Positions 2,890-24,542 of a DNA stretch of 64,000 nt are shown here, in pieces. This stretch comes from Strigamia acuminata. Lineage: Eukaryota. Positions within the stretch are counted from its first letter, which is position 1. Each line of letters begins with the position of its first letter. A program made the translations under genes and the position numbers. The DNA lies in contig OX442314.1 in the NCBI GenBank assembly GCA_949358305.1, positions 22,072,001 through 22,136,000 on the forward strand, in the 5' to 3' direction. Below the pieces are notes generated by a model, which saw nothing but the letters and a program-made list of their open reading frames with translations, searched no databases and had not been told where the DNA came from.

Positions 2890-3200
2890 GGAAAATATCT
2901 ATGAAAATTCGTAGTTTTTATGTTTCGCCTCCCAAATTTCCGATTTAAAAAACGAAAAGGCTCGGACTCAGAGTAGTTCTGAGCCGGAACGTGAAGTGAA
3001 GTTAGGTTGTTTGAACATGTCGGTTTGGTTGAACAAAAGCATATCGGTTTGTGATTCTGTTGGGAGTTCCGGGTAGCTTAACCGTGCAGCAAATGGGGGA
3101 TTTGGGTTCGACTACTCAGAGTCCGAGACGTTTCATTTTTTCAATGTGAAATTTGAAGGCGGGCCGCAAAGATCATGAATTTTCTGGATATATTACCAGA
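2890..3200. mobile_element. Old degenerate MITE with long imperfect inverted repeats
   Basis: ctcggactcagagtagt (~2961-2977) mirrors the sequence at ~3110-3127. Inverted similarity extends outward (aaatttc..aaaaaa.gaaa; gaaaattc.t). Boundaries are approximate. Confidence 0.55.
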
Positions 3201-6200
3201 AAGTTCCGGCATTGAAAAAATCTAATACAAAAATCACTTGTTAACACGACAAAACTCGTTTCATGACTCTTTAATGCCTAGTTCACACTTGAACCACTTA
3301 TGTAGAAGTTGCGACTTTTAGAAAGTGAATGATTCCTCCAAAGGTTATACTTTTTATCATGTCATCATGAGGGTGAGGGTCAACATGGGATTTTGCACGA
3401 AGTAATGCGACGGTGTTATGCTTAATTTCATTGAATGCACAGAGGTGACATCGCAAAACCAAATTTTACATTGGGTTTGTAGTATTCTTCCAAGATGAGA
3501 ATGGCAGAATTTACTTTTGTAAGGAATTTTGTAATATTGTTGCAGTACAGAGTATGTGCAAAAATATTTAATTAATTTGAGTTTATTAACACTTTACAAG
3601 AAACATTACATGAGTAAAAATCTCAGGGCTTGCAATTTCACAGCTAGTGAAGTGTGTGATAACACTAGGGTGTGTGACCTCATGTTAGGCATAGTTGGGA
3701 AGCAGATGGAAAGGAAAATTACATGCTATTGATTTGTACTTTAGTCTCACTAGATAAAAGCAAGCACTCTTTCAGTGTGTTGAAAAAAACCTTTAATTGA
3801 TCCCTAAGAATCCAAGTCACAGCTATTTGGAAATGTGCTGTGAAATCAATTGGGAATTGACACTATTAAGCGGATTAAATAAGCTTTTACATATGTCGAG
3901 ACGTAAAAAAGAAAGTGGTTACTTTACTATCTGTTAGTGCTGTGTCATCAAGCAGTGACCTTTGACACTGCAAACGAATTAATGTCCAACTATTTCCATC
4001 AGACTGATTACTGCAGCTGCAATAAATCATTTATTTTTTTTCCTTTTATTTCTTTTGGAGTTTGCCCTTTCTCCTCTTGTCTTTTCTTCTTGGTGAAATC
4101 AATTTGTGCTGTTGATTCTTCTGCATGCCTTGACTCCACTTCCTGGAGGAGCCGAAATTCCATGGAGAAAATTGTGGGTAAAAGCATTTAAGATTTTTTT
4201 TTTGTCTTAGGGTTTCTTGTCTTTCTCTCTCTTTTTTTCTCTCATCAGTTGTTGGTTGTCTTTTGGCCCATGAAAAGAGAGGTCTTTATGTTGTTGGAAA
4301 GCAAAGTGCCCAAGAGTTCAAAGTTGAAGACAAGCTGAAAGCATTTAGAGGCTTTTCTCAAGGGGGTCAGGACTGGTGAAGGGCTTTTCATTTAGTAAAA
4401 AGGGAGGACAAGTTAAGTAAAAAGGATTAGGCGGTTCGGTGTGAGTGAATAGTTAAAATGTTGCAGGGAGGGTTTTCGAGGTTTTTGTACAGGAAGGGAC
4501 ATAAAAAAGTGTTTAAAGCTGTAAAAGAGGCAATGAAAATAGTTTGCATAATTTAGAAATGGGTTTTAAGTTGAGTGAGTTGCCAAGAAATTGTTTTAAA
4601 GCTTCCTTATCGTTTGAATTTCAATGTTATGGCACTCATTTTATAGTATGTTGGGGGAATTATTAGAAAATTAACTACACTGGGAGGCCTTTCAACAAGC
4701 TTTTGCTGCTCGAATTACTAAGAGAAGGCAATTACTTAGAAGTTTTCTTGTTGTTGGCTAACATTAGTGTCATAGTTTTATATTTTTTTCTCTTTTTAAT
4801 CACCAGGCGCTTCTGGATGAGGTTTTATAAATGTTTAGACAATTGATCAAAGTGGATGGTCACTGGGTTTGGACTCTTGTGGTCAGCATTTTATTGTTTT
4901 TTCTATTGGTTTTTTTTTTTTTGAGTGATGGGAAAGTGAATTATATTTGTTTATAACGATTTTTGTATTTTTGTAATTTTTATTTTTTTGGGTTATTTAT
5001 TTTCTTTTATAGGTTTGATAATAAAATAAATCTTAATCCAATTTGGCTTGACAAATGTGAGTTGAATGGAAAATTGAGGAGCAAGTGGGGTTTAATTAAA
5101 AACTCGGATCTTCTGATTTTTTTTTTACCCACTCTTTTTTTTTCTTTCTTTATGGGGTTTAAAGGGGGAGGAAATTGGATTAAATTATTCATTTTGACTT
5201 TAGAGAATAAAAAAATTGAGAAAATATTTTTTTTTGTATTTATTTATTAATTATTTATTTTTAGTTTATTATTTCTAATTTTTTTTTATCTTTATTTATT
5301 AGTTATTTATTTTTTAAATTATTTTTTTTTATCTAACATATCTGCTTTTCGAACTTGGTTGCCATGACCATGTGTTGACATGGAGCCAAAGGACTTTAGA
5401 ATAGAGTGGCAACATAAAAGCCAAATCTATGGGCTAGGTCGAATAAATCTTGGCTGAAGTTAGATACCACCGCAAGGCCTATTGACCGGCCACCACAGCT
5501 TGACTACTGGTTACAGGAGTCAGATTGACAACTTTGACATGTTTATCAAAATTTCTGTGACCAGTTTGTGATAGTGTGTATATTTTTTTTTTTACTTTAA
5601 TTGAGAATGGACACTAAAAATAGCCATAAACCATTATCAAAAACTGCAAAAACAGAAACCACAACTAGAATTGTTTTTTCTCAAGCGGTTTGTGCCTGGT
5701 TTTAGTTTTTACAACCAAATTCAAAATGGCTCCCACACGAGTTAGGTCAGGGAGTCGAACTTCCAATTGTCAAAATGCTTGTAGGTGAAGCAGCTATCAC
5801 CAAGCAGAATTGTGTTGGAAGAAGTGGACCATAATTCGTTGATTGGGTGAAAATGAAGGGATTTTAATTGCCATTTACTTGTAAAACTCAACAACTAAAT
5901 AAACAGACACGAAAACGAAATTATCTCGCACATATTCGTTGTTCGGGTTCTTTTGTCTGTTGTTTGTGTGATTTGATTTATTAAACCATACGCAGACAGA
6001 CATTAATGTGATGTCTGGCTCGACTGGTTGTTACTGGTGGAAACCCCACCTCAGTAATAAATGAGATTTAAAAGTGCCGTTACTACCGAGTACCGAACAT
6101 TTTCTTAATTGGCACGAGACCTCCAACACAACAAGTGTGAATGCAGAAATTTAGAGGTTTGTTCGCATTAAGTAATGTAAACGTTGCCCAAAGCTGTAGT

Positions 6201-8353
6201 CGATTTTTATTTAGATAATGTTTACTTGTGAACAAACCAGAAATTCAATAATCTGTTGAAACAGTTAAATAATAAGTGTCAGATGGTGATGTCAATGACA
6301 CCATGAAAATTAACCTTTGGCCTTGCAAAGGGATGAAAAAATGGCAATTACAAAGTTGCACGGTTTGTTTTGTATGAAATAGTTGCTTTTTCTAGATTTT
6401 AACTATTTGTAATAACAGCAGAGATATTGAATGATGTTTAACAATTTGTTTTATTTCTGTAGTCATTGCCTTCTGAAAGAGTGATGTTAAACTGCATTAC
6501 ATTTTATCTTTAATTTCAGCCGACAAATAAAGTTAAAATCTGATAAAAGGAATTTTTCTATAGCAAACAAACCGTATGCTCTTTGTAATTGAACATTTTC
6601 TCATATCTCTAACAGTTTAAAAGTTACAAAAAGGTGGTTGACCATGATTCCAAAGTCAAGGGTCAATTTTCTTAGTTCCATTGAAATCACCACCCAACAT
6701 TTCCTATTTAACTGTTTGAACAGATTTTTGAATTTCTGGTTTGTTCTTCCGTAATTCGCTGGAACACTTTAAAGTCAACACTTTAAAGTACACCACAGTT
6801 TTTCACTAAAAAAAACTGAGCCCTTTGAATCTGTTGTAGAATTTAAATAAGTAAATTACGTGTAGAAGCGATGGAAGAGTCTTTTTTTCAAATTTGCACT
6901 GCAGCAAATGTTTTTAATGGTGAAAATGGAAGGCGTAGTCCTGATATAATAACAGCAGCCGTGGCCGGAATATGAATTAATCCAATATTCCGAGAGCAAC
7001 GAGTTGACTGCATGCCTCGTTTCATATTAACATTGGGCAGAAGAGCGGTTGGTTTTACTGTCGCAGAATGGCAATGCAATTGGTGCATTAGGAGATGAAG
7101 TTGGACTGTGTAGTTTAGTCATCTTCGGATCACCAATTGCGGCGTTTATTGCCGTTTTTAATATTTAGAAAGTCAAGAATGAAATATTACCGACCACGCC
7201 CGATTAGCATGCACCGCTGGCCTGCACCGCTGGCCTGCACCATACTTCTTTTCACCTTGACCGGAATTAAGAATCGGTTTGATGGAGCAGAAGGAAGATG
7301 GTCGTGCACAGGAATCAGCTTGCTGCAATAATTCTCGCGCCGCACATCTTCCATCTCTTTCACCAAGATCGTAATTTCCTTTCAGATGACCGTCATCCAT
7401 CAACATAGTGGACACTGGATGCCAGTAATGGCGCCGACGGACGCGGGGGAATTATAAAAGGAGTTTTTTGTTTAATACTTTGATGAAAAAAAGTTTTTTT
7501 TGATGCCATTTTAATGGGTGAAAGAGGAGGAAATGAGGAATGGAGAATCCCCTATGGATTTTGCTAGCAGGACTTTGGAAAGTCAAGTGGCAATTGATTT
7601 ATTTTTTTTCTCTCGTAATGGTAAGAATGAAATATAAGTTTTCCTCCCGTCTATATTTTCTTTTCTGGTGCACATGGTCAGCCATGCAGGGATAAAATAG
7701 ACTTGCATGAATAATAAATGCGGTAGAAAATGGAAAATGGGGGTTTGACAAATTCCTTCTTTAAAAAAGTGTTTGGTGTCGAATTTTTTTTCTTTTCTTT
7801 TCTTTTTGGGTGGGGACGCGTGGGGAATATTTTATTTGATGGTCTTGGAGTAAGAGTTGGGGTATGGCGGAGTATTACTTAGAAATCCAACTAAATGTAA
7901 ATACCGGTAAGATTCACTGAAGTGTGACAGTCATGGTATGGTAGCATTCTGCATTGTGGTGTTTCTGTAAACAGCAAACACAGAAGAGAAAATGGATGTG
8001 GGCGTGATTATTTTGGTTGAGTTTTTGTGAGTTTTACAAGATAACGGCAATTGAAATTCCTTCATTGTACGAATTACGGTCCACATCGTCTTCATTGAAT
8101 ACAATTCTGCTGGAACTCACGTTTTTTGGTAGTGGGTGCTTCACTTGGAAACATTATAACAATTGGAAGTTCGAGCTGAAGCCGGATCTAACTTGTGTGT
8201 CAGCCATTTTGAATTTGCAAACTCCACTCCTGCTGAGGCTTCTGTTTTTTTGCAGATTTTGGTGATGGTTTCCTTTATGTAACTTAGCCAACATTTCATC
8301 TATTATTAATAAATAATTTGAGATCTAACTCGTGCACTCTCGTGTATACGGAA

Positions 8354-8461
8354 TACAAGTAATATCACCCGTTGATGTCTGGTGTTTAACCTAGTGGTGA
8401 AACACAAAATTACTTACAATTTCAATTACCAGCCTAGAGTGAGGGTCCAGTTTTTTTGAAC
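8354..8461. mobile_element. Tc1/mariner-like terminal fragment, copy 2
   Basis: Diverged direct copy of 595-712; similarity stops just before the 8487 MITE. Confidence 0.55.
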
Positions 8462-8486: not shown

Positions 8487-8767
8487 GGTTATAGTCATTT
8501 TAGCGACGCTCATTTTAGCGATTTTTACCAAAAAAGTCACATTTTAGCGAACATGTCATTTTAGCGACACAAAAACCTAGGTTTTAGCGACAAGCCGGCT
8601 CAAAAAAGTAGTTTTCATCAAAAAACCAGTAAGGTTAGGTTCGCGGGGGGTCAAGGGGGGGGGGCGCAGCCCCCCCTTGTTAGCCCTTCTTAGGAATTAA
8701 ACCTAGGTTTTTGTGTCGCTAAAATGACATGTTCGCTAAAATGAAATCGCTAAAATGATGTACATCC
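8487..8767. mobile_element. Foldback-type MITE with long TIRs built of cattttagcga subrepeats
   Basis: cattttagcgaacatgtcattttagcgacacaaaaacctaggttt (~8540-8584) is mirrored at ~8699-8743. GG...CC termini; central G/C hairpin gggggggcgcagccccccc. Confidence 0.85.
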
Positions 8768-9867: not shown

Positions 9868-12800
9868 GTTACGATGGCCCGTTGCAGTATTCGATGACCG
9901 GCGGAAACCCAGATGCCATGACAACAGTTCAAGTGATGCCTGCAGCGCCTGCGATGATCCAGTCACCCGTAAGTGGTGATTCGGAGGTGACATCTCAGGA
10001 GAAGAAAATGTCAGGTGGGTATTTGTGGTTTACCATTTCACTCAAGATTTCAATCAAGTTTAGGTTTAGTAAGTGCAGAGTTTGGTTTTTGTTGGCAAAA
10101 TTGATTCGTGTCAGGTTTGAAGTGAATGACTTCTTATTTATATGCAACGATTCGGGGCACGTTCTTGGCAACGCCGTCAACGGACAGATAGCAAGGGAAC
10201 TTGGGATTTTCTCGGTCATATCTTACACTCAAGATCACTTGTGCCAGTGTCTTGAATTTTTTTTTTTTTTGGGAATGGGGTTGCTTGGTTGGATGGGTGG
10301 GGAAGGGGGGGGTTGTGTTGCTCGTTTTCCTTTCCAAGTTAGGATTTACAGTTGTGTGAAGATGGTAGATGGACGTTGTTGCGGCTTTGAAGTTTCTATT
10401 TGTGGCTTTTTCTTGTCAATAATCGAACTTTTTGCAGGTTGAGTTGTAATGGGAAAAGGTAGGACTTCATCTCGCAACTGTCATGTCATTTTTCTGCGAT
10501 ATTTGTTCGGACATAAAATGATTTTTTTTTTATTTTTTTTTTATTTTAAAATTAAATTGTGGCGAAATTGAAAAATTGATTGTTTAGTGGTTTTAAAAAT
10601 GAGTATTTCGAGTTAAAAATGAAGTTAGGATTTTTGTTTTAAATTTATAAATCGTTTCAAAATTTTATTTTGGCTTTTCATGATTTGAAGTCCGAGACAA
10701 ATTGTATTGCTTAATTTAATTTGTATCCGCTCATTTTTTTTTTTGTTTTGAGTGTGGAAAAATAAAACAATCAGTTTTAGTTATTGTTAGGGGGAATAAC
10801 AAATAAATCCACTATTTCTGCCTGTTCCGCCAGACTCAGGTAGTCAATCATCACGAAGTGGAGCTCAGCACCCGATATTGAAACGTTAGCTACAGGTTTT
10901 TCCATTTTTTAAATTTGTTTTTCCTTTTTTTTTTTCGGAGAAAAAAAATGAAGGTCAATACTCGGTAACATCAGTGGATTTAACAGGTACTAACAGATGG
11001 TGAAGGGGGAAAAAATCAACTTCATAGCCGTGTTTGGTCGACCATATGGGTTGCTTGCGTGATGAAGACGAGCTGTGCTGTTGTCAAGGCAACGCATCAT
11101 TTCGGATGTGTTGTTACGGTAAACCGTGACAAACTCACGAATAATGAATGTGACAAATTGCATTTAATTGACGGAAAGTGTAAATTTGCATGGATTGGCA
11201 AAATTGTTTTAATTTAAAAAAAAATTGTGATTGATTGATGGTGGTAAGTTGATGGATGGCGAAGCGAAGCAACAGCTGCGTGGAATATTTGGCGCATTTG
11301 GGTTTGGTTATTGAAGAATTTGTATTTTTTTTTTATTTATTATAATAAGGTGACGTATTGATATCGGAATGGAGTTTTTAATATATTTGCCATTTTTGAC
11401 ATAATTATATTGACATTTTGCGCAATTTTTCAAAAACCGAGGTGCAAAATTGATATCGTGCCATTGGATAAATTCGTCCTTTACCTGACTGCAGTTAAAT
11501 GGAAAATTGTACGCATTCACGATTTTGTGGAGAATGAAATGAACTGACATTGATCATGTGCTTTGAAAGCAAAATCATGTCTTGTACTATCGGGCCAATT
11601 ATTCATTCCGCATTGAGTGCCAACCTCGAAAAGAAAATTCTTTCATCCGCGAGAAGATTCGTTGAATTGTTGACCTTTTTTCCTAACCAATCATTCACCA
11701 CTTTAAATACACTAAACTCATCGTTTCTTCCGAGTTCCGACGACAACAAACAGTCTTATTTCACCACTTGTTCGGCTTCACTGCAACGTTCCCAACAAAA
11801 TTAACCTAAAAGAATGATTTTATGGCAATCTAGGGTTTAGATTTCGATTAAAAACGACATTTTTGGTGTTTTAAAAGTGGACAACGGGATTCCACAACAG
11901 CTCAGCTCGTTTTAAAACCTTGTTAGGTTTTAATTTTAATTTTTAGTAATTTATTACGTACTGCACTAACGATATTTTTTTTTTTTTTTTTTTTTTTAAT
12001 ATGAATTAGAAACGGAACGACGAATGCAACAGTTAAACTTATCGGCGCGCATCGACTTCGACGAACTCGAAAGCCACATCTTACCAATTGAAAGGGACAA
12101 CTCGACGCATAGCTCGCCGGACCTGATCGACTCACCTGACGTGACTGCATCAAGCAAGAACCGCTTCACATCCACTTCACCGAACTCCGACAAATCGAAA
12201 CGGCCGTCTAGCAGCGTAAGGGGGGCTGAGTTTTCCTCTCCTTCATTCCACTTCCCCAAAACGATAAAGTCTAACTGTTCAGCCCTGTCCATTAATTCCA
12301 TCCACCTTCCCTACGCACTACTTCTGCCACAAAGCAAGAAAGATGAATTCGAATACCCCTCGTTTTACACAAACGCGTTCCCGCAAGTCAAAGAGCGAGA
12401 ATTTCCTGCCGCTTATTCCTCGCGCGTGTTCTCCGTGCCCTTACCTTCGTTCACCTCCGACACATTCTCGGTGACCCCCAACTGCCCTTCTAACGAACGC
12501 ACATACACAGTAATCGAGCCTCCTCCGTCCATCCTTTCGAACGCACCTTCAATCGACGGCTCGTCCGATTATAGCCCGCCAAACTGGCCCACCGTACCCT
12601 CGGAAATTTCCCAAGTCCCGTCGACCGATCATTGCTCGAGTCCTTCGTATTACCCCAGCGTGCTGACGATTGAAAAACTTATTCATCAGGAAAGCATTTT
12701 TCCTTTCGTTTCCTCCGCTGACATGGAATTCCTCTCCTGCCGCTCTTCTAGCCGGTCAAAATCATACGATTCCCACCACAAAATTACGCCCAAAGAAACT

Positions 12801-15800
12801 AAATCGTACAATTCGGTCGAGGCTAAATGGAGTGTTTCGAGCAGTAACTCAACGCATTCGCAGACCATTGTCTCGGAGCGCGACAGACGCAAACACAGGC
12901 CAGACTCCTCCTTGTCCAATTGCAGTTCGAATTCGAAATTGTTAGCTCGTTATAAGGTGTACAATCCCGAAACGAAACAGTCGAACGTCCACTCCGAGCC
13001 CGTTTCGCGCATAGAAGTGGATCCGGTAGTTAATAGCAAGACCACCGGGTGTTCGAGTGCCCCTTCTAATTACGATGTGAAAGAGGATCCGCCCTCACTG
13101 TTACCCCGGTTGAGAAAAACGACTTCTAGGTGTGCGAAAATCGTTTTGAGCCCGCAATTGAAGCCCAAATATACCCCGTCTCGGTCGAAAATTGTGACAA
13201 AATTAATGCTCAATGCCAAGAAGAATTCGAGAATTCGATTATCCCAAAAAGCCGTACCGAAACCCACATTTTCGCGCTTGAAATACCCAACTTGCGGCCC
13301 AAAGTCCACTTGTTTGCACCCACAAAAACAGATTTTGCCGCCTTCCGGCTCGAAATCACCTTGTGCACCATTAAAATGTCCGGCCAAGAGTCCCGGCGGT
13401 CCCGGTGCCAAGGGTTTAAAGATAAAAGCTCAAACCAAGACCCCCACAGCTAATAATACACTTTTGAATTCGAAAAAAAAATTCGAACCGCTTCGCTCCA
13501 CGGTGCCACTCACGGTGGACAGTTGTGGCGTGTCGCCAGAATTAATCAAATGTTGCACGCCACGGGTGTGTAAGGAAACGTGCAAGTTAGAACGCGAGGT
13601 TTCTCCGGAATTAATCAAATGTTGCACGCCACGGGTCTGTAAAGAAACGTGCAAGTTAGAACGCGAGGTTTCTCCGGAATTAATCAAATGTTGTACGCCA
13701 CGGGTCTGTAAGGAAATATGCAAGTTAGAACGCGGTGTTTCTCCAGAATTAATCAAAAGCTCTACGCCACGGGTCTATAAGGAAACGAGCAAGTTAGAAC
13801 GCGGTGTTTCCCCAGAATTAATCAAAAGCTTTACGCCACGGGTCTGTAAGGAAACGAGCAAGTTAGAACGCGGTTTTTCCCCAGAATTAATCAAAAGCTT
13901 TACGCCACGGGTCTGTAAGGAAACGAGCAAGTTAGAACGCGGTGTTTCCCCAGAATTAATCAAAAGCTTTACGCCACGGGTCTGTAAAGAAACGAGCAAG
14001 TTAGAACGCGATGTTTCCCTAGAATTAATCAAATGTTCTACGCCACGGGTCTGTAAGGAAACGAGCAAGTTAGAAAGTGGTGTTTCCCCGGAATTAAAAA
14101 AAAGGAGTACGCCACGGTCCGGTAAGAAGACCAGTAAGTCAGAACGTGGTGTTTCCTCAGAATTAAAGAAAAGCTGTACGCCACGGGCCGCTAAGAAGAC
14201 CAATAAGTCAGTTTGTGGTTCCTCATACGCTCGGAAGGGGATTTTTAACCGACAATCCTCGGACTCGAGCGCTACCGGTAGCACTAATTTCGTCGGTCGA
14301 CTTTTCCGTGACGCATCGGAGTCAACACTGGACTTGACGTTAAATGAAAGCCGAAAATCGTCGCAAACGACCGTTTCCACTCCGTTTGCGGGAAAATTTG
14401 AACGCAGCTCGTCACCAACGACTCAGACCGCACCGATCGCGACTTACGTGAATATGTTTAAACAAACGACGAATTGCAGCGACGGTTTTAACCGGTCCCA
14501 AAACGAAATAAATTCGCCGCGCAGTTCCGGGTTCGTGAGAGTCAAGTCCAGTTTTGGTGTCCCGAACTCGGACCAATCCAGGCAAAGCAGTCCGCGGACT
14601 TCGACCGAATGCTCGGAACACGAAACAACGGATAGAAGCGGCATTCCGTCGAGACACGGCTCGAAACGACACAAAAAATCGCACGACTCCGTTGTTACAA
14701 CTTCGACGCTGGATTGTTTCAGTAACCCAACTTTGGCAACCGACACAACATTTGGACAGCCCAAGGAAGTTGTCGGTTTCTCAAGCGATTCGAATTCCCG
14801 GCCAACTGAAACGCAAGCTGGGAAAAACTTGCGCAGACCGTGCGGCGCACCGCAGAAACGGTCAGCAATTCCACGACTGATTAAAGCGCATTTTAATTTT
14901 TCAAAAACACTCCCCACTTGTGTAAAGGGGGATCAAAATGATAATACATTTGTTCACAATAGCGTTGAAGTGGCTTCGAATTATTCTGGCGTGACTTCGA
15001 ATCATTCCGGCGCGACTTCGAATCATTCCGGCGCGACTTCGAATCGTTCCGGCGCGATTTCGAATCATTACGGCGCGATTTCGAATCATTACGGCGCGAT
15101 TTCGAATCATTACGGCGCGATTTCGAATCATTCCTGTGCGACTTCGAATCATTCTTCTGGCTCTGAGTATTGTACTTGTGTTTCCACTTGCTCTTCCTCG
15201 CTTTCCTATCACACCTGCAGTATGACTGAGTGTTATAGTATGTTTTATTTGGTTTGATTTAATTGAATTAGTTTGTTTGTAATGACTGTAAAACTATTTA
15301 TTTATTTTATTTATTTTTTTTTTATTATTTAATAATTTGGAAGTTGAATAAATGAAGTTTACAATTTTATTTTTGTGTTTTTATTTTAGAGTTCGATGGA
15401 AGAAGGTGGTGATGCAAGTAAAAGTAACAGCAGCAATGTGATTCCAGGTGATAAGTTGGAGAATTTGTCCAGTTTCGTGGTGGAACCAGCTCCACAAGGA
15501 TCGCTCCTTAAGTGTCGTATCACGCGTGATCGTAAAGGAATGGATCGAGGTCTTTTCCCAACTTATTATCTTCATTTGGAGAAGGAGGATGGCAAAAGGG
15601 TATTTCGACAAAATGTACAATTGCGTTCAATTGTTTTGCTCACGATTTGTTGTTCTACAATAGGTGTTTCTTTTGGCTGCTCGAAAACGGAAGAAAAGCA
15701 CTACGTCGAATTACTTAATATCAACTGATCCGACGGATTTGAGTCGAAGTGGGGACTCGTTTATGGGGAAGTTGAGGTAAAATAGAATAAAAATGTTTTT

Positions 15801-16697
15801 GGTTTTTAAAAATATTAATTTTGTGATTTAAATTCTAGGTCGAATTTAATCGGAACTCAATTTACGCTTTTCGACGGTGGTGCGAATCCTAGAAAAGGCC
15901 TGGCTGCTAGCGACAGAAACAATGCTCGTCAGGAACTAGCTGCTGTGATCTATGTATGTCTATAAGTAGCATTGCAATGGAGAGGAGAAAAGTGTGTAAC
16001 AAAACGAATTTTTTTTTTTGCAGGAAACCAATGTGTTGGGTTTTAAAGGACCAAGAAAGATGACTATTGTTTTACCAGGAATGACTGTTGATAATCACAG
16101 GGTTGATATGCAAATTAATGTGGTTAGAATCATTTATTAGTGTTGTTCTAGTTTGGAAGATTTGTTAATATTTGTTATTTGTTTTTATAGGACGGTGATG
16201 GACTTCTAGAGAGGTGGAAAGTTAATAATATGGATAACTTAATCCAACTTCATAATAAAACACCAGTATGGAACGAAGGTAACATCTACAGCTTGTGTAA
16301 TGAAATAATTTGATTAATTTATTTTGTTTGTAGAAACACAATCGTATGTTTTGAATTTTGGAGGGCGAGTGACGCATGCATCGGTGAAAAACTTTCAAGT
16401 TGTTCACGACAACGATGGTATACATTATTTATTTAAACCATTTAAACGAGTAAAAATTAGTTTACACTCTTGTAAATGAATTACACGCGTTTATACTCGT
16501 TTAAAGGACAGTTATGTTTGTTTTATATATTTTTTTAATTTTGAACTTTAAATTTATTTCCAGTTGACTACATAGTAATGCAGTTTGGCCGAGTAGCCGA
16601 AGATGTATTTACTATGGACTTTCGTTTTCCAATGTGTGCTCTTCAGGCTTTTGGAATTGCTTTGAGCAGTTTTGATAGCAAGTTAGCATGCGAGTGA
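9868..16697 (+). CDS. ktub: Tubby-family protein (king tubby/TULP), multi-exon, 5'-incomplete
   Basis: Phase-consistent GT-AG exons 9868-10014, 12010-12215, 15390-15599, 15664-15776, 15839-15953, 16024-16122, 16191-16278, 16334-16417, 16564-16697. The translation gives [29 protein letters not shown] and the complete tubby domain ([142 protein letters not shown]). The basic/Gln-rich N-terminal exon(s) typical of tubby were not found in the window. Confidence 0.96.
11046..11118 (+). CDS. Candidate alternative first coding exon of tubby ([24 protein letters not shown])
   Basis: ATG at 11046, 24 codons plus G, donor gtaaac at 11119. Phase 1 matches the 12010 acceptor (G+AA = Glu). Confidence 0.45.
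12010..15257 (+). CDS. Extended/alternative exon of the tubby locus: ~1014 extra Ser/Pro/Lys/Cys-rich residues with tandem repeats
   Basis: ORF 12024-15257 begins inside tubby exon 12010-12215 and reads in frame through its donor (AGC|gtaagg, 12216) with no stop for ~3 kb. It is markedly more GC/CpG-rich than the flanking intron DNA. AATAAA at 15347-15352. Confidence 0.7.
13527..14216 (+). repeat. Coding minisatellite, 10 x 69 bp ([23 protein letters not shown])
   Basis: Directly visible in both DNA and translation. Confidence 0.95.
14976..15164 (+). repeat. Coding minisatellite, 9 x 21 bp ([14 protein letters not shown])
   Basis: Repeated ttcgaatcattccggcgcga(c/t) units. Confidence 0.95.
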
Positions 16698-18156
16698 ACT
16701 TAGGAACAACAACTAAAGTAATTAAAAAGGTGTTTTCGAGAACTAATACCCACTATGTCAATTTTTATGCAATGCAACCAAAAACAAAATGAATTTCATG
16801 CAAAGTGAAATCGTGCACTTGTGTTGTCACCACAGACCGATATATGCGTGTCTCCAAGTACAACTTTAAATCCTTTTGTACATTAAGTGGATTGTTTACT
16901 GTGTTTTTCAGCATTTGAAGATGAATGACGCTTTTTTTCTTCTTTATTTTTGTTTGTTTGTGTGTCTCTTATTTTATTTTAATTTTTTTTTAATTTTTTT
17001 TAATTTTTTTTTTATTTTTATTTATTTATTTTTCTTTTTTGAATTAATCGTTTACTGATTCAGTTTGGAATTTCTTTGCTCGCAGACATTTTGTGTCTGA
17101 ATTTTATGGATGATAATCCTTTTGGAGATACTATAAAATTGTCATAATTTGTAAACTGAACGAGTCAGATGGAAAATTTTCTCTATTTTTCTAAGAAAAA
17201 CTTTTAATTCAGATGACACCCACCATGTAAATTTATTGCAGTTACTTAATGCAACAATTTTTGTGCACTATGTACATTTATTGCAATTTTTGTTAGATGA
17301 TTATTGTGTTTAGAAAAAAAAAATGTTGTTTACAGTTTAGAAAAATTTTTATGTTATTTATACATAGAAATGTATGTAACATCATGAGAAACAAGATTTT
17401 TGTTACAATTTCCGTTCGTTCAAGGTTGTAACTTTGCGTTTCCAAATTGGTTTGTACCATGCTTTCTCTCGCAATGATTTTACTCTCTTACGTGTATTGT
17501 TGATTGATTAAAATATTTTTGGATTTTACGTCCAACCCGGAATTAACTAAAGTATTCAAACATTTTTTGAGGTGAGTTTTGTACTTAAATATATCTTGGT
17601 TGTGGTATTTTAGAGGAAAAAAACGGGTCTCTGTCACCGACAGCTAAGTTTTCAGTGAAAGGCAGGTGGTAGATGCTTTTACGGTTAAAAATCCATTTTC
17701 TTACACATGGGAGATAAAATAAAGTTGTAAAATGAAAAAATATCATTCAAACAGTAAATTTTGCTTCAAATTCACACTCATCTCGCTGTGTTTTGCAGTG
17801 AAGCGATTTTGCGTGAGAGAATTCAGTTTGCTACACTTTGATTACCATTAAAAGGTTGCAACTATTTCAAAAACCGATTAGCATAAATTCTAGAAAATTC
17901 AATTTTTTATTTTTTACAGTTGCATTAATAAATTCGGACATTAAAATTTTTAAAAACTTACTACAGAAAATAATAAACGTTACATACATCAAGGTTAAAT
18001 AAAATATTAAAAAATGATTTAAAACGAGAGTTCATATAATGAAGCGTTGCAATTCAACCTTATTTAACCGAATCACGATGTTTAGGGTTGTGAATGTGGA
18101 GTAAAAGTTGATTCCGAACTGTTGTCAAAAACAACAGGTATACCGGTATTGCCTTC

Positions 18157-19117
18157 TTAGTATCTACACGGACAAGCTGGACAACATTTACAGCAATCGC
18201 ATGGCACAGGCTTTCTTCCACTATTAGGGCTTCCGCAATTACAACATTGGTAGGTTTTGTCACCTGTTTTGCATTGCTCACAACATTGGCAACCTCCATC
18301 GGCGAGTCCGCATTCACATTCTACATCACCGTTCTCTTCCACTTCTAAGTAAAAAGTTACGTTAAACTCTTGATAAAATTAAAGTTTAAGTGTTATATAG
18401 CATACCTTCATCATTTTCTTCAAGAACACCGGCAACTCCAATCATAATGACAATACCACCACCGACAAATCCCATATGGGCAGCAGCTCCATTAGGTTCA
18501 GGAGGATTTAAATCATCCGGTTCAGGAAAATTAAATTCATTCGGTTCAGGAGGATTAAATTCATTCGGTTCAGGAGGATTTAATTCATCCGGTTCAGGAA
18601 AATTAAATTCATTCGGTTCAGGAGGATTAAATTCATCCGGTTCAGGAAAATTAAATTCATTCGGTTCAGGAGGATTTAATTCATTCGGTTCAGGAAGATT
18701 AAAATCATTCGGTTCAGGATTTAAATCATTCGGCTCAGGAAGATTAAAATCATTCGGTTCAGGAGGAATTAAATCATTAGGTTCAGGAGGAATTAAATCG
18801 TTAGGTTCAGGAGGAATTAAATCGTTAGGTTCAGGAGGAATTAAATCGTTAGGTTCAGGAGGAATTACTTCGTTAGGTTCAGGCGGAATTAAATTGTCAG
18901 GTTCATGGAGATTTAAATCATCCATGGCGAATTGCAGTTCCTCGACGTCCGGGTCAGCAGGCTGGTCAGCTAAATCTGCAAGAGCAGCAACAGCTGGGTG
19001 CACAAGTCCATTGGGTTCTGGGTTGTCGACATTGTGTATAATAGCTTCGGCGACTGCAATTAATTCCTCATTGTTTATAATAGCTTCAGGGACTGGAACT
19101 AAATCATCTTGATCCAT
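18157..19117 (-). CDS. Cys-cluster gene A: acidic PEPN-repeat protein with C-terminal 16-Cys domain (299 aa)
   Basis: Exon 19117-18406, 61-bp phase-1 intron (G|gtatgc...ttacttag), exon 18344-18157; 900 nt in frame. C-terminus is DVECECGLADGGCQCCEQCKTGDKTYQCCNCGSPNSGRKPVPCDCCKCCPACPCRY. An Inr-like TCAGTT lies ~57 nt upstream of the ATG. Confidence 0.8.
18490..18905 (-). repeat. Coding minisatellite, ~17 x 24 bp (PEPN[DE]xxP)
   Basis: Repeated ggttcaggaggaattaaatc.. units on +; one unit is 21 bp. Confidence 0.95.
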
Positions 19118-19780
19118 TTTTTCAGTTGATGCTCCTTCTCGAGTTGTTGTTCTGAAGAAATCCCTTTTCGAACTGACATACTGTCACCAAACTCCGACCA
19201 AGAAAACTATTTTGCGATTGTATAATAATTTGCATAAAATATGAAAATAATGTTATTGCAGATTAATTTGAATATTTTAAAGTAAAAAATAAAAAATTAC
19301 TTAAATTCATAGCCGTATGGATATATATATTTAAAATAAAGTTATTATAATCGATAATTTTTAATGTTATCTTGTAAATACTAGAAATCATCATTTGACA
19401 TTTTTTTTATTTTCGAGATTTTATTATTACACAACACAGACAAACGAGTCACTTTCAATTTAAAATTTAAATTAATACTTGAGCGATGTACGGTAATAAA
19501 TTTAAAAAATCATACGTAGATTTACATTTTCTATATACTTTTGTGCTTACGCTTTGTATCGAACCAATATCCAATAAAAAATTTATAAACAAAAAATTAT
19601 TTCTATGCGCTTTTGCTAACTGAAACATGTTTTAAATTAAACAATTTTATTTTTGTTAAAACTGAAGTTGGTAAATTACATTATACAAAAATAACACATG
19701 CAACAATTTCGAATAAATTAATGAACAAAAATTCTTCTAGATCAGTTGAGTTAGTTTGCACTTAATTGGAGGAAATGAAC

Positions 19781-19863
19781 GCATTGAAGCCGACTTTGGA
19801 TAAAGCTGAACCGGGGCGTCCACGTTCCGTATCGGTACACCCAATTCCTCCTCTTGCTCAAGC
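19781..19863 (+). repeat. Inverted copy of 21483-21565 (gene C exon 1), 79/83 nt identical
   Basis: Manual alignment of gcattgaagccgactttggataaagctg...cttgctcaagc against the reverse complement of 21483-21565 gives 4 mismatches and no gaps. Confidence 0.95.
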
Positions 19864-19886
19864 TCTTATACGTATAACTCGCTTCT

Positions 19887-20412
19887 TCACTTGGCACGCT
19901 TTTCGCTTTCATCTTTCGACTCGTTTTTGCATTGACAAGCCACACAGCATTCGCATTTTTCATCCATGTAGCTTACGGTACAAGTGGCAATATTAGAAAG
20001 ATCTTTCATTCCTCCTGGACAGTGCATGCAACAAGAACATGCAGTACATTTGCATTCAACGTCATCGGAACCAGAAGTTTGGTCTGCAATTAAATAATAA
20101 AAAATAAACAGAGTAAATAAAACTCAAATTTCAATTGCCAAATAAATACTTACTCGAATCAATAACAGGAACAACTGCAATGCCAGCAGTAGCTTCACGA
20201 TCAGGAGACAATGATGAAATACGAGCTCGAAGAGGTGTGTTCATTAACGAACTAAAAGGACTACTAAACCTCGGTACACGTGGTGTTACGGGAGGTAAAT
20301 TTGGCATTGGCGACGCAGGAGGCGTTCTAAATTCTTCCTGTTCAAGCGATGTTGGTTCTGTTGGTTTTGATAGTTCATAAAAAGTTTTATTAAGATCTTC
20401 GCTAGGATCCAT
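19887..20412 (-). CDS. Cys-cluster gene B: Pro/Ser-rich protein with C-terminal 12-Cys domain (151 aa)
   Basis: Exon 20412-20154, 70-bp phase-1 intron (A|gtaagt...attgcag), exon 20083-19887; 456 nt in frame. C-terminus is NQTSGSDDVECKCTACSCCMHCPGGMKDLSNIATCTVSYMDEKCECCVACQCKNESKDESEKRAK. Exon 2 does not appear in the supplied ORF track. Confidence 0.8.
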
Positions 20413-21048
20413 GGTTTTGCTTTGTTTAATGCTGCTGCACTAACGTAGATAGCAGATTTCAGCTTATTTGTACTGTTTTCGACAGGGAAATCAATTTCCA
20501 TAGCAGACGAATATTAATTTGAATAGGACACATGATTGGATAAAAAAAACGACGTTAATGAATTTGTTTATTTTATTCTTCACTATTCTTTATTTTTGAT
20601 AGTTTGTCTTTTAAATTAATTGTAATTTCTTGCTTTTTTCTTCATTAAATTGTTATTTTTTACCTTTTTCTTTATTAAATTATCATTTTTTTCATCAATT
20701 TTTTGTTTACTTTTTTAATTTATACTTCATTATTTTTCATTTAAATTATAATTTAACTTACTATGTTAGGATCGCTAAATTATTAAAAAAAAAAAACCGT
20801 ACACCGTAGATTTATATGGTACACCACCTACGAATAAAAACGCATTAAGTTAGTTTTATGAATAAATTTTATTTTTTTATTCCGCACACAAAAATAATAT
20901 AACGAATTAGCAGAACTAGCAAAACGGAACAATTTTTAACAATAAACTTAGCAAGGAAGAAAAATACATTTAAATTTTAAACAAATCAATTTCAACGAGA
21001 CAAAAAACCAATTATTCGGAAACTTTGAATACCATACAATAAATCAAG

Positions 21049-21604
21049 TTAAACGAGAATAGGTTGAAGCAGCGGAGGTGGTGGATCTGGAATAACTTCG
21101 GGTTCGGGCTTCAAAACGGTCAGACATTTGCAAGCAGCGCAGCAAGCACACTCGGTCGGAAGATTTGCGTCGCGAGGCGTACAGTCGCAACGACGAATAA
21201 CAGCGCTGTTTCCCTGCCTACAATAATCGCAGCAGGTACACAGTTGGCAGAGACATTCTCCGTGACTGGTACCATTACCTAAATATAAATCCCAAAGAGT
21301 TAATAAAAAAAATAGCGATTTTTAGTAATAACTAACCAAATGTAACGGAAATAGTGGTATGCCAAGTTACATGTAACTTACCCTGGTTATTATTCCCATC
21401 TTCGGGGGCCACTGCAATTACATGACCAGGATCCGCTCCGATGTTCGGAGCGTTTGGATCGAGAATGGGTTCTCCACCAAGTGCTTGAGCAAGAGGAGGA
21501 ATTGGGTTGACCGATACGGGACGTGGACGCCCCTGTTCAGCTTTATCCAAAGTCGGCTTCAATGCTTTCGGGCTTGCTTCGGTTGTCCTGCCTTTGGTAT
21601 CCAT
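21049..21604 (-). CDS. Cys-cluster gene C: Pro-rich protein with C-terminal 13-Cys domain (150 aa)
   Basis: Exon 21604-21382, 103-bp phase-1 intron (G|gtaagt...atatttag), exon 21278-21049; 453 nt in frame. C-terminus is GNGTSHGECLCQLCTCCDYCRQGNSAVIRRCDCTPRDANLPTECACCAACKCLTVLKPEPEVIPDPPPPLLQPILV. Confidence 0.8.
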
Positions 21605-21986
21605 GTTTGTTAAGTTTGGCGTGCTGCGTAAATCTGTCTGACAAGGAATTTAAATTTCCCGCGAGCTTTATACACAATTTTTTTCGGTGTCGTGCGCAAA
21701 ATAAATTTGCATCAACGTCAAAACACATGACGGACGAATCAGCCAATCAATCATTCCAATTTGAATTACTGGTAGAGACAAATATGGAAATTATTTGACG
21801 TATTTCACGTTACGTAATTTAAAAAATTTCGATGTTATTTGTCTTATCAGTTTCGATATTTAAAAAAATAAATAAATAAAAATACTAAGAATTTGATAAT
21901 TTTAACGTAACATTTTATTCTTATAAAAATACAAACAAAACTCTAAATAAATAAAATAAAACAAAAACTTTAGGCAGTAGCAATGA

Positions 21987-22624
21987 TTATGACTGAGACT
22001 GATTAATTAATTCATTTTGCCTTCCTTCTGGTTCTGAGCTAGAACTAGAAAAAAAGTCAATAACTTCAAACGAAGTAGTAACAACGGGCGCCGTGACTGT
22101 TGGCGGAGACACTTTCGTACTCAACCCAACAAAGTTGGACGTAGATTTCAAATTAAGAGGTCCTAGAATTCTCTTTGCAGGTTCCTGAGTCGAAATCCTA
22201 ATTGATCTCAACGACGAAGGCTTAGGCGGCGTCGATTCCGGTTCACTCGACGCCTAAACGGACAAATCGGTCGGAAAATTCATCAAACTGGAAGACGTCG
22301 TTTCCACCGGTTCGCTTTTAACCGACAGATCCAACGTTGACCTATTATTGATGACATGGAATTTGAAAGATATCAAATTCTGTGTTGTCGAGTTCTCTAA
22401 TTTTGTTTTTTCTTTTTTCTAAATACTGTTACAGCATAGTTATTACTATTAGCAATAGATGGCGCTCCGAAATTGGGCATAGTAGATGATTGTTTAACCC
22501 GATGCCGAGTGCGCAGTCTAGTGTATTCAGGTCTGTGGTTGAACCTAAGGTTTAACATACTTTTCGATTTCAACGTTGCTGAACTGTTAAAAATTCTAAG
22601 AATTGTGAAGTACACAGGAACCAT
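21987..22624 (-). pseudogene. Disrupted coding sequence of a low-complexity Ser/Thr/Pro-rich protein with PxDLS-like and SUMO-type motifs
   Basis: The frame KLENSTT..STLDLSVKSEPVETT..FPTDLSV*ASSEPES..PLNLKST..FEVIDFFSSSSSE continues across an in-frame TAG (22254-22256). There is an apparent frameshift at the A-tract near 22405 from ORF 22624-22397. Confidence 0.45.
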
Positions 22625-22750
22625 AAGTCCTCCAACAGCCTTAAAATTTGACTAATAAGCCCAAAATTTTATTTTCTAGTCCAAAATCAGCCACTGGAGG
22701 ACTGGAGTTCTGATTTGAAAAAGCTCCCTGAATGTAAGTGCCTTTCGATT

Positions 22751-23074
22751 CCCACATGGTTAATAAATAAATTGAAATTATATTGCAATGTATTTTGAAA
22801 TGCATTGGATTTCATGAGAATGCATTTTGTAATGCATTTTTACATGCTTTTGGTCTGCAAATGAATACATTTTGTAAAATGTATTACAAAATGATTCCCA
22901 ATATAATTATTTGTCAAATATGAATGTATTTTCAAATTGAATTTCTTCAGTTGTATTACGAAATGCATTATTTAATTTACAAATAATGCACTTAATTCAG
23001 TGAGATGCTGTACATTTTGGAATGCATTAAGTGAAAAGCAATTTATTGTCAAATATATTATTTAACCATCTGGG
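22751..23074. mobile_element. MITE / non-autonomous TIR element with CCC...GGG termini
   Basis: Left end cccacatggttaa; right end reverse-complements to cccagatggttaa. Interior rich in atgcattt repeats. Possible 2-bp TT duplication (weak). Confidence 0.6.
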
Positions 23075-23169
23075 TTGTTCAAGAAAAAAAAAAGTGTGTT
23101 TTTAAATTATATTTACATAAAAATTAAAATTGATTAATGAAAAGTAAGAAAGCAATCAGTTTGATTTGT

Positions 23170-24542
23170 TTTTATTTACATTCCTCAATACAATACAATG
23201 AAATCAGACATGATGGTATACTATACTCATTAACACAATGATGCAAACATTTTCCATTTCCCTTTTAATATATATATATTTATATTCATTTATTCTCAAG
23301 AAAAAATAAACATTTTCTATACGTATTGAAAGCCAAGATGGGATTTAAAAATAGCAATGAAACCACAATAAAAAATAAAATTGAATATGACATGTAATCA
23401 GTTTGCCAGTAAAGAGTAACTTCACCAGGTTAGACTAGATGTAAATAAAAGTAACTTGGGGATAAACTCGGGTGATTAATAAGTGGCAAGGTTTAAGCAA
23501 TGAATTGGTTCAATATTCCATATTGATTTGATTAGCAGCATTAGTAGAAATAAAAATACTAAAACAAATGGATATTTTTCAATCACCATGGAGGACACTC
23601 TAAACAGATCTAAAATAAAACATCAACTTGTAAATAACTTGTTATTGATGATTTGCAATGTTTGCAAGATGGTACAACAATGATAATAAAAAATAATAAT
23701 AATGTCTACATTCGGAATTCAGTATATTATAGAATACTGGCAGTGATGCCTTGAGCCTAGTACAATTAAGCACTACAATGGAACATCATTGTCTGTATCA
23801 GCATGTTTATATTCACAGAAATACTTGTACTTTAATACTATTTTCCGTGATAATGAAAGATAAAACAATGACTGATTTACAGTAATAGCTTGTTGGTGTT
23901 TATATCACTTTTATGTCAGTTTTTTTAATTTATTTTTTTTAATTTTTTAAAAGAATGCAGTGATTATTCTTATAGAATGTAAAGAATCAATTGTGATACA
24001 GACAGACAGTTTACAGGAAATACCCAAACCTTGTTATAGCAAATTAAGAACCTGTATAAGGATCAGTTCTCACTCTTATCAGTCGAGAATGAGAAGACCT
24101 TTACCAAAAACAGCGATGAGATCATATTGAAAACATTTGGTTACATTTTTCTTATATCGGTGATTAATCTTTTTCTAAGTGCAAATTAAATAATGAAGAG
24201 CAATGATTTTATAACCGTAAAATATATATATATTTACATTATTTACATTTACTTAAAATACAAAGGTGGGACAAATAATGTTGTTGCAACTAAAAAATAA
24301 ATTGTGGATATCTCTTTCTCTCTTTTTTAAAATTAAAAAAAAAATTAAAAAAAAAAAAATTTGAAAGCATTGAAATAAATAAGAACAATTTCTATTATAC
24401 CAATAGTTTTATAAAGACATGTATATACAAGATGGGTGATTGATTTTTTTTTCTTCTGGTTTTCTTTACTGTAGTTTGTACTGTTGTCACATCACAAGAA
24501 AGAATGGTCTTGATTGACGGCTAGGCCTCTTTGGTTAGATAT
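23170..24542 (-). other. Probable non-coding last exon (AU-rich 3' UTR) of the CKI gene
   Basis: Donor CAG|gtaagc at 31661, 18 nt after the stop. Strong acceptor tttttttctgtttgtag at 24543-24544. AU-rich sequence with minus-strand AATAAA near 23171-23176; the 3' end is uncertain. Confidence 0.5.

What the first reader, a model, noticed from the sequence alone, without database searches (positions are those of the whole stretch)
19781..21565. Predicted 3' UTR of gene B carries an 83-nt near-perfect antisense copy of gene C's coding exon
Seen: 19781-19863 is the reverse complement of 21483-21565 (79/83 identical). It begins 23 nt after gene B's stop and lies before the first canonical minus-strand AATAAA (19646-19651). 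B mRNA would therefore be complementary to C mRNA, and a C-to-B read-through transcript would fold into an 83-bp stem with a ~1.6-kb loop. The 95% identity contrasts with the deep divergence of the paralogs, so the insertion is recent or maintained. Established: long hairpin and antisense RNAs generate endo-siRNAs that silence young germline genes (Drosophila hpRNAs, Nmy/Dox). Inference: built-in paralog cross-regulation, possibly a suppressor/target pair, although a neutral template-switch duplication is equally possible.
Basis: partly seen in the sequence, partly recalled or inferred. Interest (0 to 1): 0.8.

Follow-up and report, generated by a model that had tools for sequence, protein, structure and literature searches.

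The report
Flipped gene fragment in neighbour's tail
In what is likely a centipede genome, an 82-base piece of one gene sits backwards just behind the stop codon of the neighbouring gene, in only one of several copies of that neighbour, and it is most likely a harmless DNA-repair scar, although it could in principle make antisense RNA against the source gene.

Summary
19781-19863 is the reverse complement of 21483-21565 (79/83), lies 23 nt past gene B's stop and upstream of the first AATAAA. It is not an assembly artefact: short-read contigs from three runs in two studies cross the right junction without a difference.

At least four other B forms lack the insert, and only one carries it. The nearest template is the adjacent C copy. 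Against the closest empty form, 82 nt of C exon 1 replaced 21 nt, with 3-nt and 2-nt junction microhomologies, inside one arm of a 20-bp palindrome. This fits a microhomology-mediated template switch.

At least 2 of 5 mismatches arose on the B side. C has five AATAAA signals before B, so a read-through hairpin is unlikely. An RNA-like run shows an empty-site B transcript crossing the site, so an antisense 3' UTR is plausible, but no small-RNA data could be examined. The flanking tubby gene points to a Strigamia-like centipede. Verdict: real, probably a neutral scar; regulatory role about 18%.

The parts
19784..19865 (+). Net inserted segment, 82 nt: a copy of C exon 1 (21481-21562) in inverted orientation; antisense to C mRNA when read on gene B's strand
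   Evidence: alignment, mismatches at 19812, 19826, 19837, 19838, 19864; an empty-site form leaves the window after 19783 and rejoins at 19866
19781..19783 (+). Left junction microhomology (3 nt; 6 of 7 over 19777-19783), shared by the template and the closest empty-site B form
   Evidence: loose end behind 19783 in X1 and X2; mismatch list; reading by eye
19866..19867 (+). Right junction microhomology (2 nt), shared by the template and the closest empty-site form
   Evidence: loose end before 19866 in X1 and X2
19866..19877 (.). 12-bp perfect palindrome, the remnant of a 20-bp palindrome (through 19881) present in the closest empty-site form; two other empty forms also rejoin inside its left arm, at 19870
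   Evidence: self-complementary core; tables 5, 5c and 7
19887..20412 (-). Gene B: two exons, 70-nt phase-1 intron (20084-20153), 151 aa, Pro/Ser-rich exon 1 and Cys-rich exon 2
   Evidence: multi-copy
19646..19651 (-). First AATAAA downstream of the B stop (236 nt); predicted poly(A) signal
21049..21604 (-). Gene C: two exons, 103-nt phase-1 intron (21279-21381), 150 aa; exon 1 holds the template
   Evidence: two X6 contigs stop at 21279, where a spliced transcript would stop
21479..21565 (-). Template of the insertion, in C exon 1; the nearest of the C-type contigs to the insert (5 differences against 9, 12 and 13)
   Evidence: table 8
20572..20881 (-). Five AATAAA signals between the C stop and the B start (at 20881, 20873, 20676, 20594, 20577, with an overlapping sixth hit at 20572)
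18157..19117 (-). Gene A: third paralog, 299 aa, 61-nt phase-1 intron (18345-18405), octapeptide repeats and the same Cys-rich exon 2
   Evidence: one X6 contig is spliced across this intron

Best explanation
An 82-nt piece of gene C exon 1 lies inverted behind the stop codon of one copy of gene B, most likely copied there once by a microhomology-mediated template switch during DNA repair or replication, and it is probably a neutral scar. Shown: the insert, its single-copy status among several B forms, its closest match to the adjacent C copy, and the short junction identities relative to one empty-site form. Inferred: a broken or stalled 3' end near the palindrome behind B's stop annealed by 3 nt to the C exon 1.6 kb away, copied about 82 nt of the opposite strand, and returned by 2 nt, replacing 21 nt. 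Also inferred: the event became fixed at this locus and the arm has been drifting since. If this B copy is transcribed like its paralog, its mRNA would carry the antisense stretch as a passenger.
For: Empty-site B forms exist in all four runs: joints 19781->19870 (X1 depth 229, X3 19.6), 19754->19870 (X1 289, X3 24), 19781->19886 (X6), and loose ends at 19783/19866 (X1, X2) and 19884 (X1, X2, X3). The insert contig sits at 1.10, 0.96 and 1.33 times flank depth, while the B exon-2 end sums to 9.9, 8.5 and 7.5 times. The site is structurally different in every B form seen, which marks it as rearrangement-prone. The adjacent C is the nearest template (5 differences vs 9-13). The segment is embedded in every C-type contig, which fixes the direction as C to B. 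At 19812 all C-type contigs (3 in X1, 5 in X3) carry the cis-C letter, and at 19826 the listed C contigs carry the cis-C letter or a third letter, so these changes arose on the B arm (table 3). An inverted, nearby template with junction microhomology is the published MMB-TI signature; about 100 such germline events were found per human genome examined (PMC8421209, passages).
Against: The microhomologies are short (3 and 2 nt) and depend on taking one empty form as the pre-insertion state. The 1.6-kb distance exceeds the 100-bp search range of PMC8421209, and 82 nt far exceeds the usual Pol theta tract of 10 bp or less (PMC7165422). The insert is identical over 134 nt in all three deep runs, including X3, whose flanks differ from the window by 0.4-3.3%. 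That is compatible with fixation by drift but also with retention by selection. The site is very probably inside the 3' UTR (X6 record 24), and 16 of 71 21-mers are still perfectly complementary to C. Neutrality itself was not tested. Depth is only a rough guide to copy number.
Confidence: 0.78

Rival explanations
1. The insert arose the same way but was co-opted. The insert-bearing B mRNA would act in trans on C-family mRNAs, either by pairing with them to give a Dicer substrate or by yielding 3' UTR-derived piRNAs antisense to C, and so damp an amplified family.
For: An empty-site B contig in RNA-like X6 covers the site. C-type contigs end at the C splice site in X6. The arms would form a strong duplex (-160 kcal/mol) with perfect runs of 31 and 25 nt. 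C is amplified 4-7 fold. S. maritima has somatic piRNAs, and its siRNA-target TEs show antisense enrichment like species without RdRP (10.1101/185694, passages). The insert is present in 3 of 3 deep runs.
Against: Only one of about 8-10 B copies has it. Other C copies differ from the arm at 9-13 of about 80-91 positions. At least 2 of 5 mismatches are derived on the B arm, and none of the 5 is a G:U pair (expected by chance with P 0.28, so weak). Expression of this particular B copy was not shown.
Confidence: 0.13
2. A C-to-B read-through transcript folds into an 83-87-bp stem with a loop of about 1.4-1.6 kb and acts as a hairpin RNA (hpRNA) against the C family.
For: Both genes lie on one strand, 1611 nt between arms. 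Drosophila hpRNAs can arise from gene-derived inverted repeats in amplifying families (PMC10317233, passages).
Against: Five AATAAA and two ATTAAA lie between the C stop and the B start. Once C mRNA is cleaved, the downstream RNA no longer carries the C arm (established 3'-end processing; own knowledge). B's UTR alone is not a hairpin (z 0.35).
Confidence: 0.05
3. The inversion is an assembly artefact or a library chimera.
For: The left-junction contig was inferred, not listed. X1 or X2 may be the window's own source (0 differences on the flanks).
Against: X3, from another study and with a different flanking haplotype, has the 19782-19915 contig with 0 differences at depth 31.7. The arm differs from its template at 5 positions, which a chimera would not.
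Confidence: 0.02

Closest known systems
Microhomology-mediated templated insertion (MMB-TI / MMBIR-type template switch; PMC8421209)
   Same: Insertion inverted relative to a nearby template, short microhomology or microhomeology at both junctions, return to the original site with replacement, persistence as a germline variant.
   Different: The template is 1.6 kb away, whereas that study searched only within 100 bp. The template is a coding exon of a neighbouring paralog, and the landing site is a predicted 3' UTR.
SD-MMEJ / polymerase theta templated insertions (PMC5728401, PMC7165422)
   Same: Short junction microhomologies and a hairpin-forming sequence at the site. The small variable inserts of the empty B forms look like such scars.
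   Different: Those events use templates within about 30 nt and tracts rarely over 10 bp. This one is 82 nt from 1.6 kb away.
Drosophila hpRNAs (Nmy/Dox, hp-ODox, hp-tHMG; PMC10317233)
   Same: A gene-derived inverted repeat next to members of a young, amplified gene family.
   Different: hpRNA arms lie in one transcript and give Dcr-2-dependent siRNAs. Here the arms are in two genes separated by poly(A) signals, and no small RNA is known.
Mu killer of maize (PMC3440606, start of abstract only)
   Same: A rearranged, inverted piece of a multi-copy element that could silence the family in trans through read-through transcription.
   Different: Mu killer is proposed to make a hairpin RNA of about 4 kb from a transposase gene. 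Here the stem is under 90 bp, and the family is not shown to be a transposon.

Membership tests
MMB-TI (microhomology-mediated templated insertion) | Insertion is an inverted copy of a template in the same region | tested here: met
   the adjacent C is the nearest C-type contig
MMB-TI (microhomology-mediated templated insertion) | An uninserted (reference) state of the site exists | tested here: met
   At least four empty-site B forms; they are paralogs rather than alleles of this locus, judged by depth
MMB-TI (microhomology-mediated templated insertion) | Microhomology at the junctions | tested here: met
   3 nt left (6 of 7 with one mismatch) and 2 nt right against the closest empty form; short, and conditional on that form being the pre-insertion state
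MMB-TI (microhomology-mediated templated insertion) | Template within 100 bp (operational limit of the MMBSearch tool, not of the mechanism) | tested here: not met
   1611 nt between arms; limit from PMC8421209 passages
Polymerase theta TINS / SD-MMEJ | Short tract (rarely over 10 bp) from a template close to the break | tested here: not met
   82 nt, 1.6 kb away; criteria
hpRNA | Both arms of the inverted repeat in one transcript | tested here: inconclusive
   No transcript data join them; five AATAAA lie between the genes; B's UTR alone has z 0.35
hpRNA | Dcr-2-dependent siRNAs from the duplex, and precursor or target up in dcr-2 mutants | not testable with these tools
   No small-RNA or knockdown data available; criterion
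Natural antisense transcript acting in trans (siRNA or piRNA source) | Antisense stretch lies within an expressed transcript | tested here: inconclusive
   A paralogous empty-site B contig crosses the site in RNA-like X6; the insert-bearing copy itself was not seen in X6
Natural antisense transcript acting in trans (siRNA or piRNA source) | Complementarity maintained by selection | tested here: inconclusive
   At least 2 of 5 mismatches derived on the B arm; 0 of 5 G:U, P 0.28; too few changes to decide
Mobile element or endogenous virus carrying genes A-D | Terminal repeats or a recognisable transposase, integrase or viral gene | tested here: not met
   No terminal direct or inverted repeat above shuffle level between 17550-18000 and 22400-23300; no Pfam, viral-contig or viral-fold match

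The most novel reading that the evidence does not exclude
A single repair accident gave one member of an amplifying, lineage-specific centipede gene family an antisense copy of its neighbour's coding exon in its 3' UTR, and this now yields siRNAs or piRNAs that hold the whole C family down. It would be a suppressor caught at birth, with the unmodified ancestral state still present in sister copies.
Probability: 0.15. Interest if true: 0.6.

Novelty: new member of a known kind. Interest (0 to 1): 0.27.

Why it matters
If neutral, it is a clean example of how repair by template switching plants antisense gene fragments in UTRs, the raw material from which hairpin and antisense regulators are thought to arise. 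That is ordinary. If functional, it would extend suppressor-type endogenous small RNAs beyond Drosophila to myriapods, with a built-in control: empty-site sister copies and five arm-specific letters make the test easy. The unannotated Cys-rich A/B/C family around it may deserve more attention than the insert itself.

Tried and rejected
No whole genome is held for this window, so other copies could not be located or read.

Identity of the A/B/C proteins stayed open:
- No Pfam family for 6 of the 7 exon pieces of A-D tested; A exon 1 gave only a sub-threshold Cornifin repeat match.
- No homologue among longer proteins for C exon 2 (12 candidates, none scored) or among near-length proteins for the three-way alignment.
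- No usable Atlas hit, and only hits under 0.8.
- No related locus in viral contigs (70 pattern hits, 0 confirmed) or metagenome contigs (142 hits, 0 confirmed).
- No exact match of a 20-nt arm pattern in metagenome contigs.
- The AlphaFold model was poor (pLDDT 54) and its viral fold search empty, which is uninformative.
- The full HMMER search of 1.84 billion representatives never ran because the queue was full, so distant relatives are not excluded.

Other blanks:
- No Rfam match in 17500-23500.
- No RNA holder was listed on record.
- X6 showed no contig on the arm or on C exon 1, and no cover at 20744-20977. These blanks are not used as evidence.
- No earlier scan finding was returned.

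Considered and rejected:
- The match as paralog homology: B and C do not align as DNA elsewhere.
- Direction B to C: all C-type contigs hold the segment in their own flanks.
- Empty forms as mere alleles or a pooled sample: each form has about the whole flank depth and they sum to 8-10 times it.
- A transposon with terminal repeats around A-D.

Unexplained: a joint 19959->19658 in X1 and X2.

Literature searches for this locus gave nothing on it. In one search none of the 12 listed papers (of 200) contained 'Strigamia'. The library lacks most subscription papers, and no supplements were read.

Full report
Observation. The inverted match is real. 19781-19863 equals the reverse complement of 21483-21565 at 79 of 83 positions, extends to 91 nt at 93%, and is the best inverted match in the window (E 9e-33). 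Three minus-strand genes lie in tandem: A (19117-18157, 299 aa), B (20412-19887, 151 aa) and C (21604-21049, 150 aa). Each has one GT-AG phase-1 intron ahead of a Cys-rich exon, and those exons are 32-36% identical to C's. The B-side arm begins 23 nt after B's stop. The first poly(A)-like hexamer of 12 variants scanned is AATAAA at 19646-19651. The C-side arm is in C exon 1. B and C share no other DNA similarity, so this is a transfer, not paralog homology.

Organism. A flanking tubby exon is 95% identical to Strigamia maritima tubby, the best of 471 hits; the next is 60%. The other exons match at 72-98%. The window is therefore likely from a Strigamia-like centipede, probably not S. maritima itself (inference). 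No genome was available.

Not an artefact. Six runs were listed and three hold the stretch, from two studies. I laid four of the six. A contig over 19782-19915 with no difference crosses the right junction in X1 (depth 313), X2 (91) and X3 (31.7). The left-junction contig was not among the listed pieces (36 were not shown). Solving the depth table gives a contig over 19754-19810 at about 275 in X1, and this reproduces two further bins to 0.1; X2 and X3 give consistent sums. X1 or X2 may be the window's source. X3 is another study, and its flanks differ from the window by 27 letters plus 11 gap letters in about 810 nt on the left and by 4 plus 3 in 900 nt on the right.

The genes are multi-copy and only one B has the insert. 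Against the single flank contig (284, 95 and 24), the insert contig stands at 1.10, 0.96 and 1.33. C-type contigs over the arm sum to 6.9, 4.4 and 4.5, and the end of B exon 2 to 9.9, 8.5 and 7.5. The tool warns that summed depth is no exact copy number, but distinct contigs agree: five C-type arm contigs in X3 and three in X1, and at least four empty-site B forms in X1. The empty forms join 19781 to 19870 with 10 other letters, 19754 to 19870 with 20, about 19781 to 19884-19886, and 19783 to 19866 with 21 (the last two read from loose ends). Among C-type contigs the adjacent C is nearest to the insert: 5 differences against 9, 12 and 13. All C-type contigs keep the segment in C flanks, so the direction was C to B.

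Junctions. The form that leaves at 19783 and rejoins at 19866 shares the sequence up to 19783 with the insert-bearing copy; both contigs start at 19754 in the depth solution. I take it as the pre-insertion state, which is an inference. Against it, 82 nt (19784-19865) replaced 21 nt. Three letters (19781-19783; 6 of 7 from 19777) match both site and template on the left, and two (19866-19867) on the right. That form carries a 20-bp perfect palindrome, of which 12 bp remain in the window (19866-19877). Two other empty forms also rejoin inside its left arm. An inverted nearby template with junction microhomology is the MMB-TI signature, found about 100 times as a germline variant in each of two human genomes (PMC8421209, passages); that study searched only within 100 bp. 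Hairpin-forming sequence near a break steers repair in Drosophila (PMC5728401, passages). Pol theta tracts are rarely over 10 bp (PMC7165422, passages), so an MMBIR-like switch fits better than simple TMEJ.

Expression. No run is on record as RNA, but X6 behaves like a transcriptome (inference). One contig stops at 18346 and resumes for 28 nt in A exon 1, exactly as splicing of the predicted intron requires. Two contigs stop at 21279, the predicted C splice point. This supports the A and C gene models. In X6 an empty-site B contig runs from exon 2 across the site to at least 19764, so the site probably lies in B-family 3' UTRs. Whether the insert-bearing copy is expressed is unknown. Its absence from shallow X6 is not evidence, since C exon 1 was not recovered there either.

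Function. For a regulatory role: the arms would pair strongly (-160 kcal/mol; 16 of 71 21-mers perfect), the insert is in 3 of 3 deep runs, and S. maritima has somatic piRNAs and antisense-linked siRNAs (10.1101/185694, passages). Against it: only one copy has the insert, and the site differs in every B form. Five AATAAA separate C from B, which makes a read-through hairpin unlikely, and B's UTR alone is unstructured (z 0.35). At 19812 and 19826 the B arm carries the derived letter; the other three mismatches could not be polarised. None of the five is a G:U pair, but that is uninformative (P 0.28). hpRNAs are defined by Dcr-2-dependent siRNAs from an inverted repeat in one transcript (PMC10317233, passages), which was not testable here. 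Mu killer (PMC3440606, start of abstract) is a looser analogy.

The family itself is unidentified. Pfam, protein, Atlas, viral, metagenome and fold searches found no relative, the most sensitive search did not run, and no terminal repeats bound the block. Some paralog indels keep the frame: 3 nt behind 21398 and a 66-nt skip in B exon 1 (the letters between not known), and a 27-nt loss in B exon 2 read by eye from loose ends.

Verdict. A real, single, microhomology-flanked inverted insertion of a known kind, probably neutral (0.78). Trans-acting antisense small RNA 0.13, read-through hairpin 0.05, artefact 0.02. Interest 0.27.

Noticed in passing
window 17900-22600: A compact block of three paralogous two-exon genes (A, B, C) sharing a phase-1 intron and a C-terminal exon with 12-14 Cys built on two CxCCxxC units. 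It is multi-copy with gene-specific depth (A and D about 2-3x, C 4-7x, B 8-10x), spliced in an RNA-like run, and has no homologue in any search that ran. It could be a lineage-specific amplifying family or cargo of an unrecognised mobile element.
   Followed up: partly
window 21987-22340 (minus strand): A fourth frame ('D') of 117 codons interrupted by one stop, Ser/Pro-rich, with PTDLS, TLDLS and PLNLK motifs resembling CtBP-binding PxDLS sites (motif recalled, not tested). An X6 contig covers 21997-22347 with 15 differences.
   Followed up: partly
window 22751-23074: Very high-copy (about 200-fold or more flank depth) MITE-like element with 23-nt imperfect terminal inverted repeats, flanked by TT on both sides.
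   Followed up: partly
window 12000-15257 (plus strand): A 1085-codon open frame with 23-aa and 7-aa tandem repeats inside the tubby-like gene region, upstream of the Tub-domain exons (15375-16698). It is not matched by the S. maritima tubby record and may be a large alternative exon.
   Followed up: no
window 19658-19959: X1 and X2 hold a high-depth contig with a joint going back from 19959 to 19658, possibly a rearranged or tandem form of the B 3' end. Unexplained.
   Followed up: no
window 5716-8217, 6230-6746, 8540-8743, 2886-3200: Several older inverted-repeat pairs (69-100% identical) in non-coding DNA, probably nested non-autonomous DNA transposons; 607-710 and 8356-8461 are a dispersed direct repeat.
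   Followed up: no
window 52187-52798: Fragment of a retrotransposon pol gene (retroviral SH3-like domain, E 5e-10).
   Followed up: no
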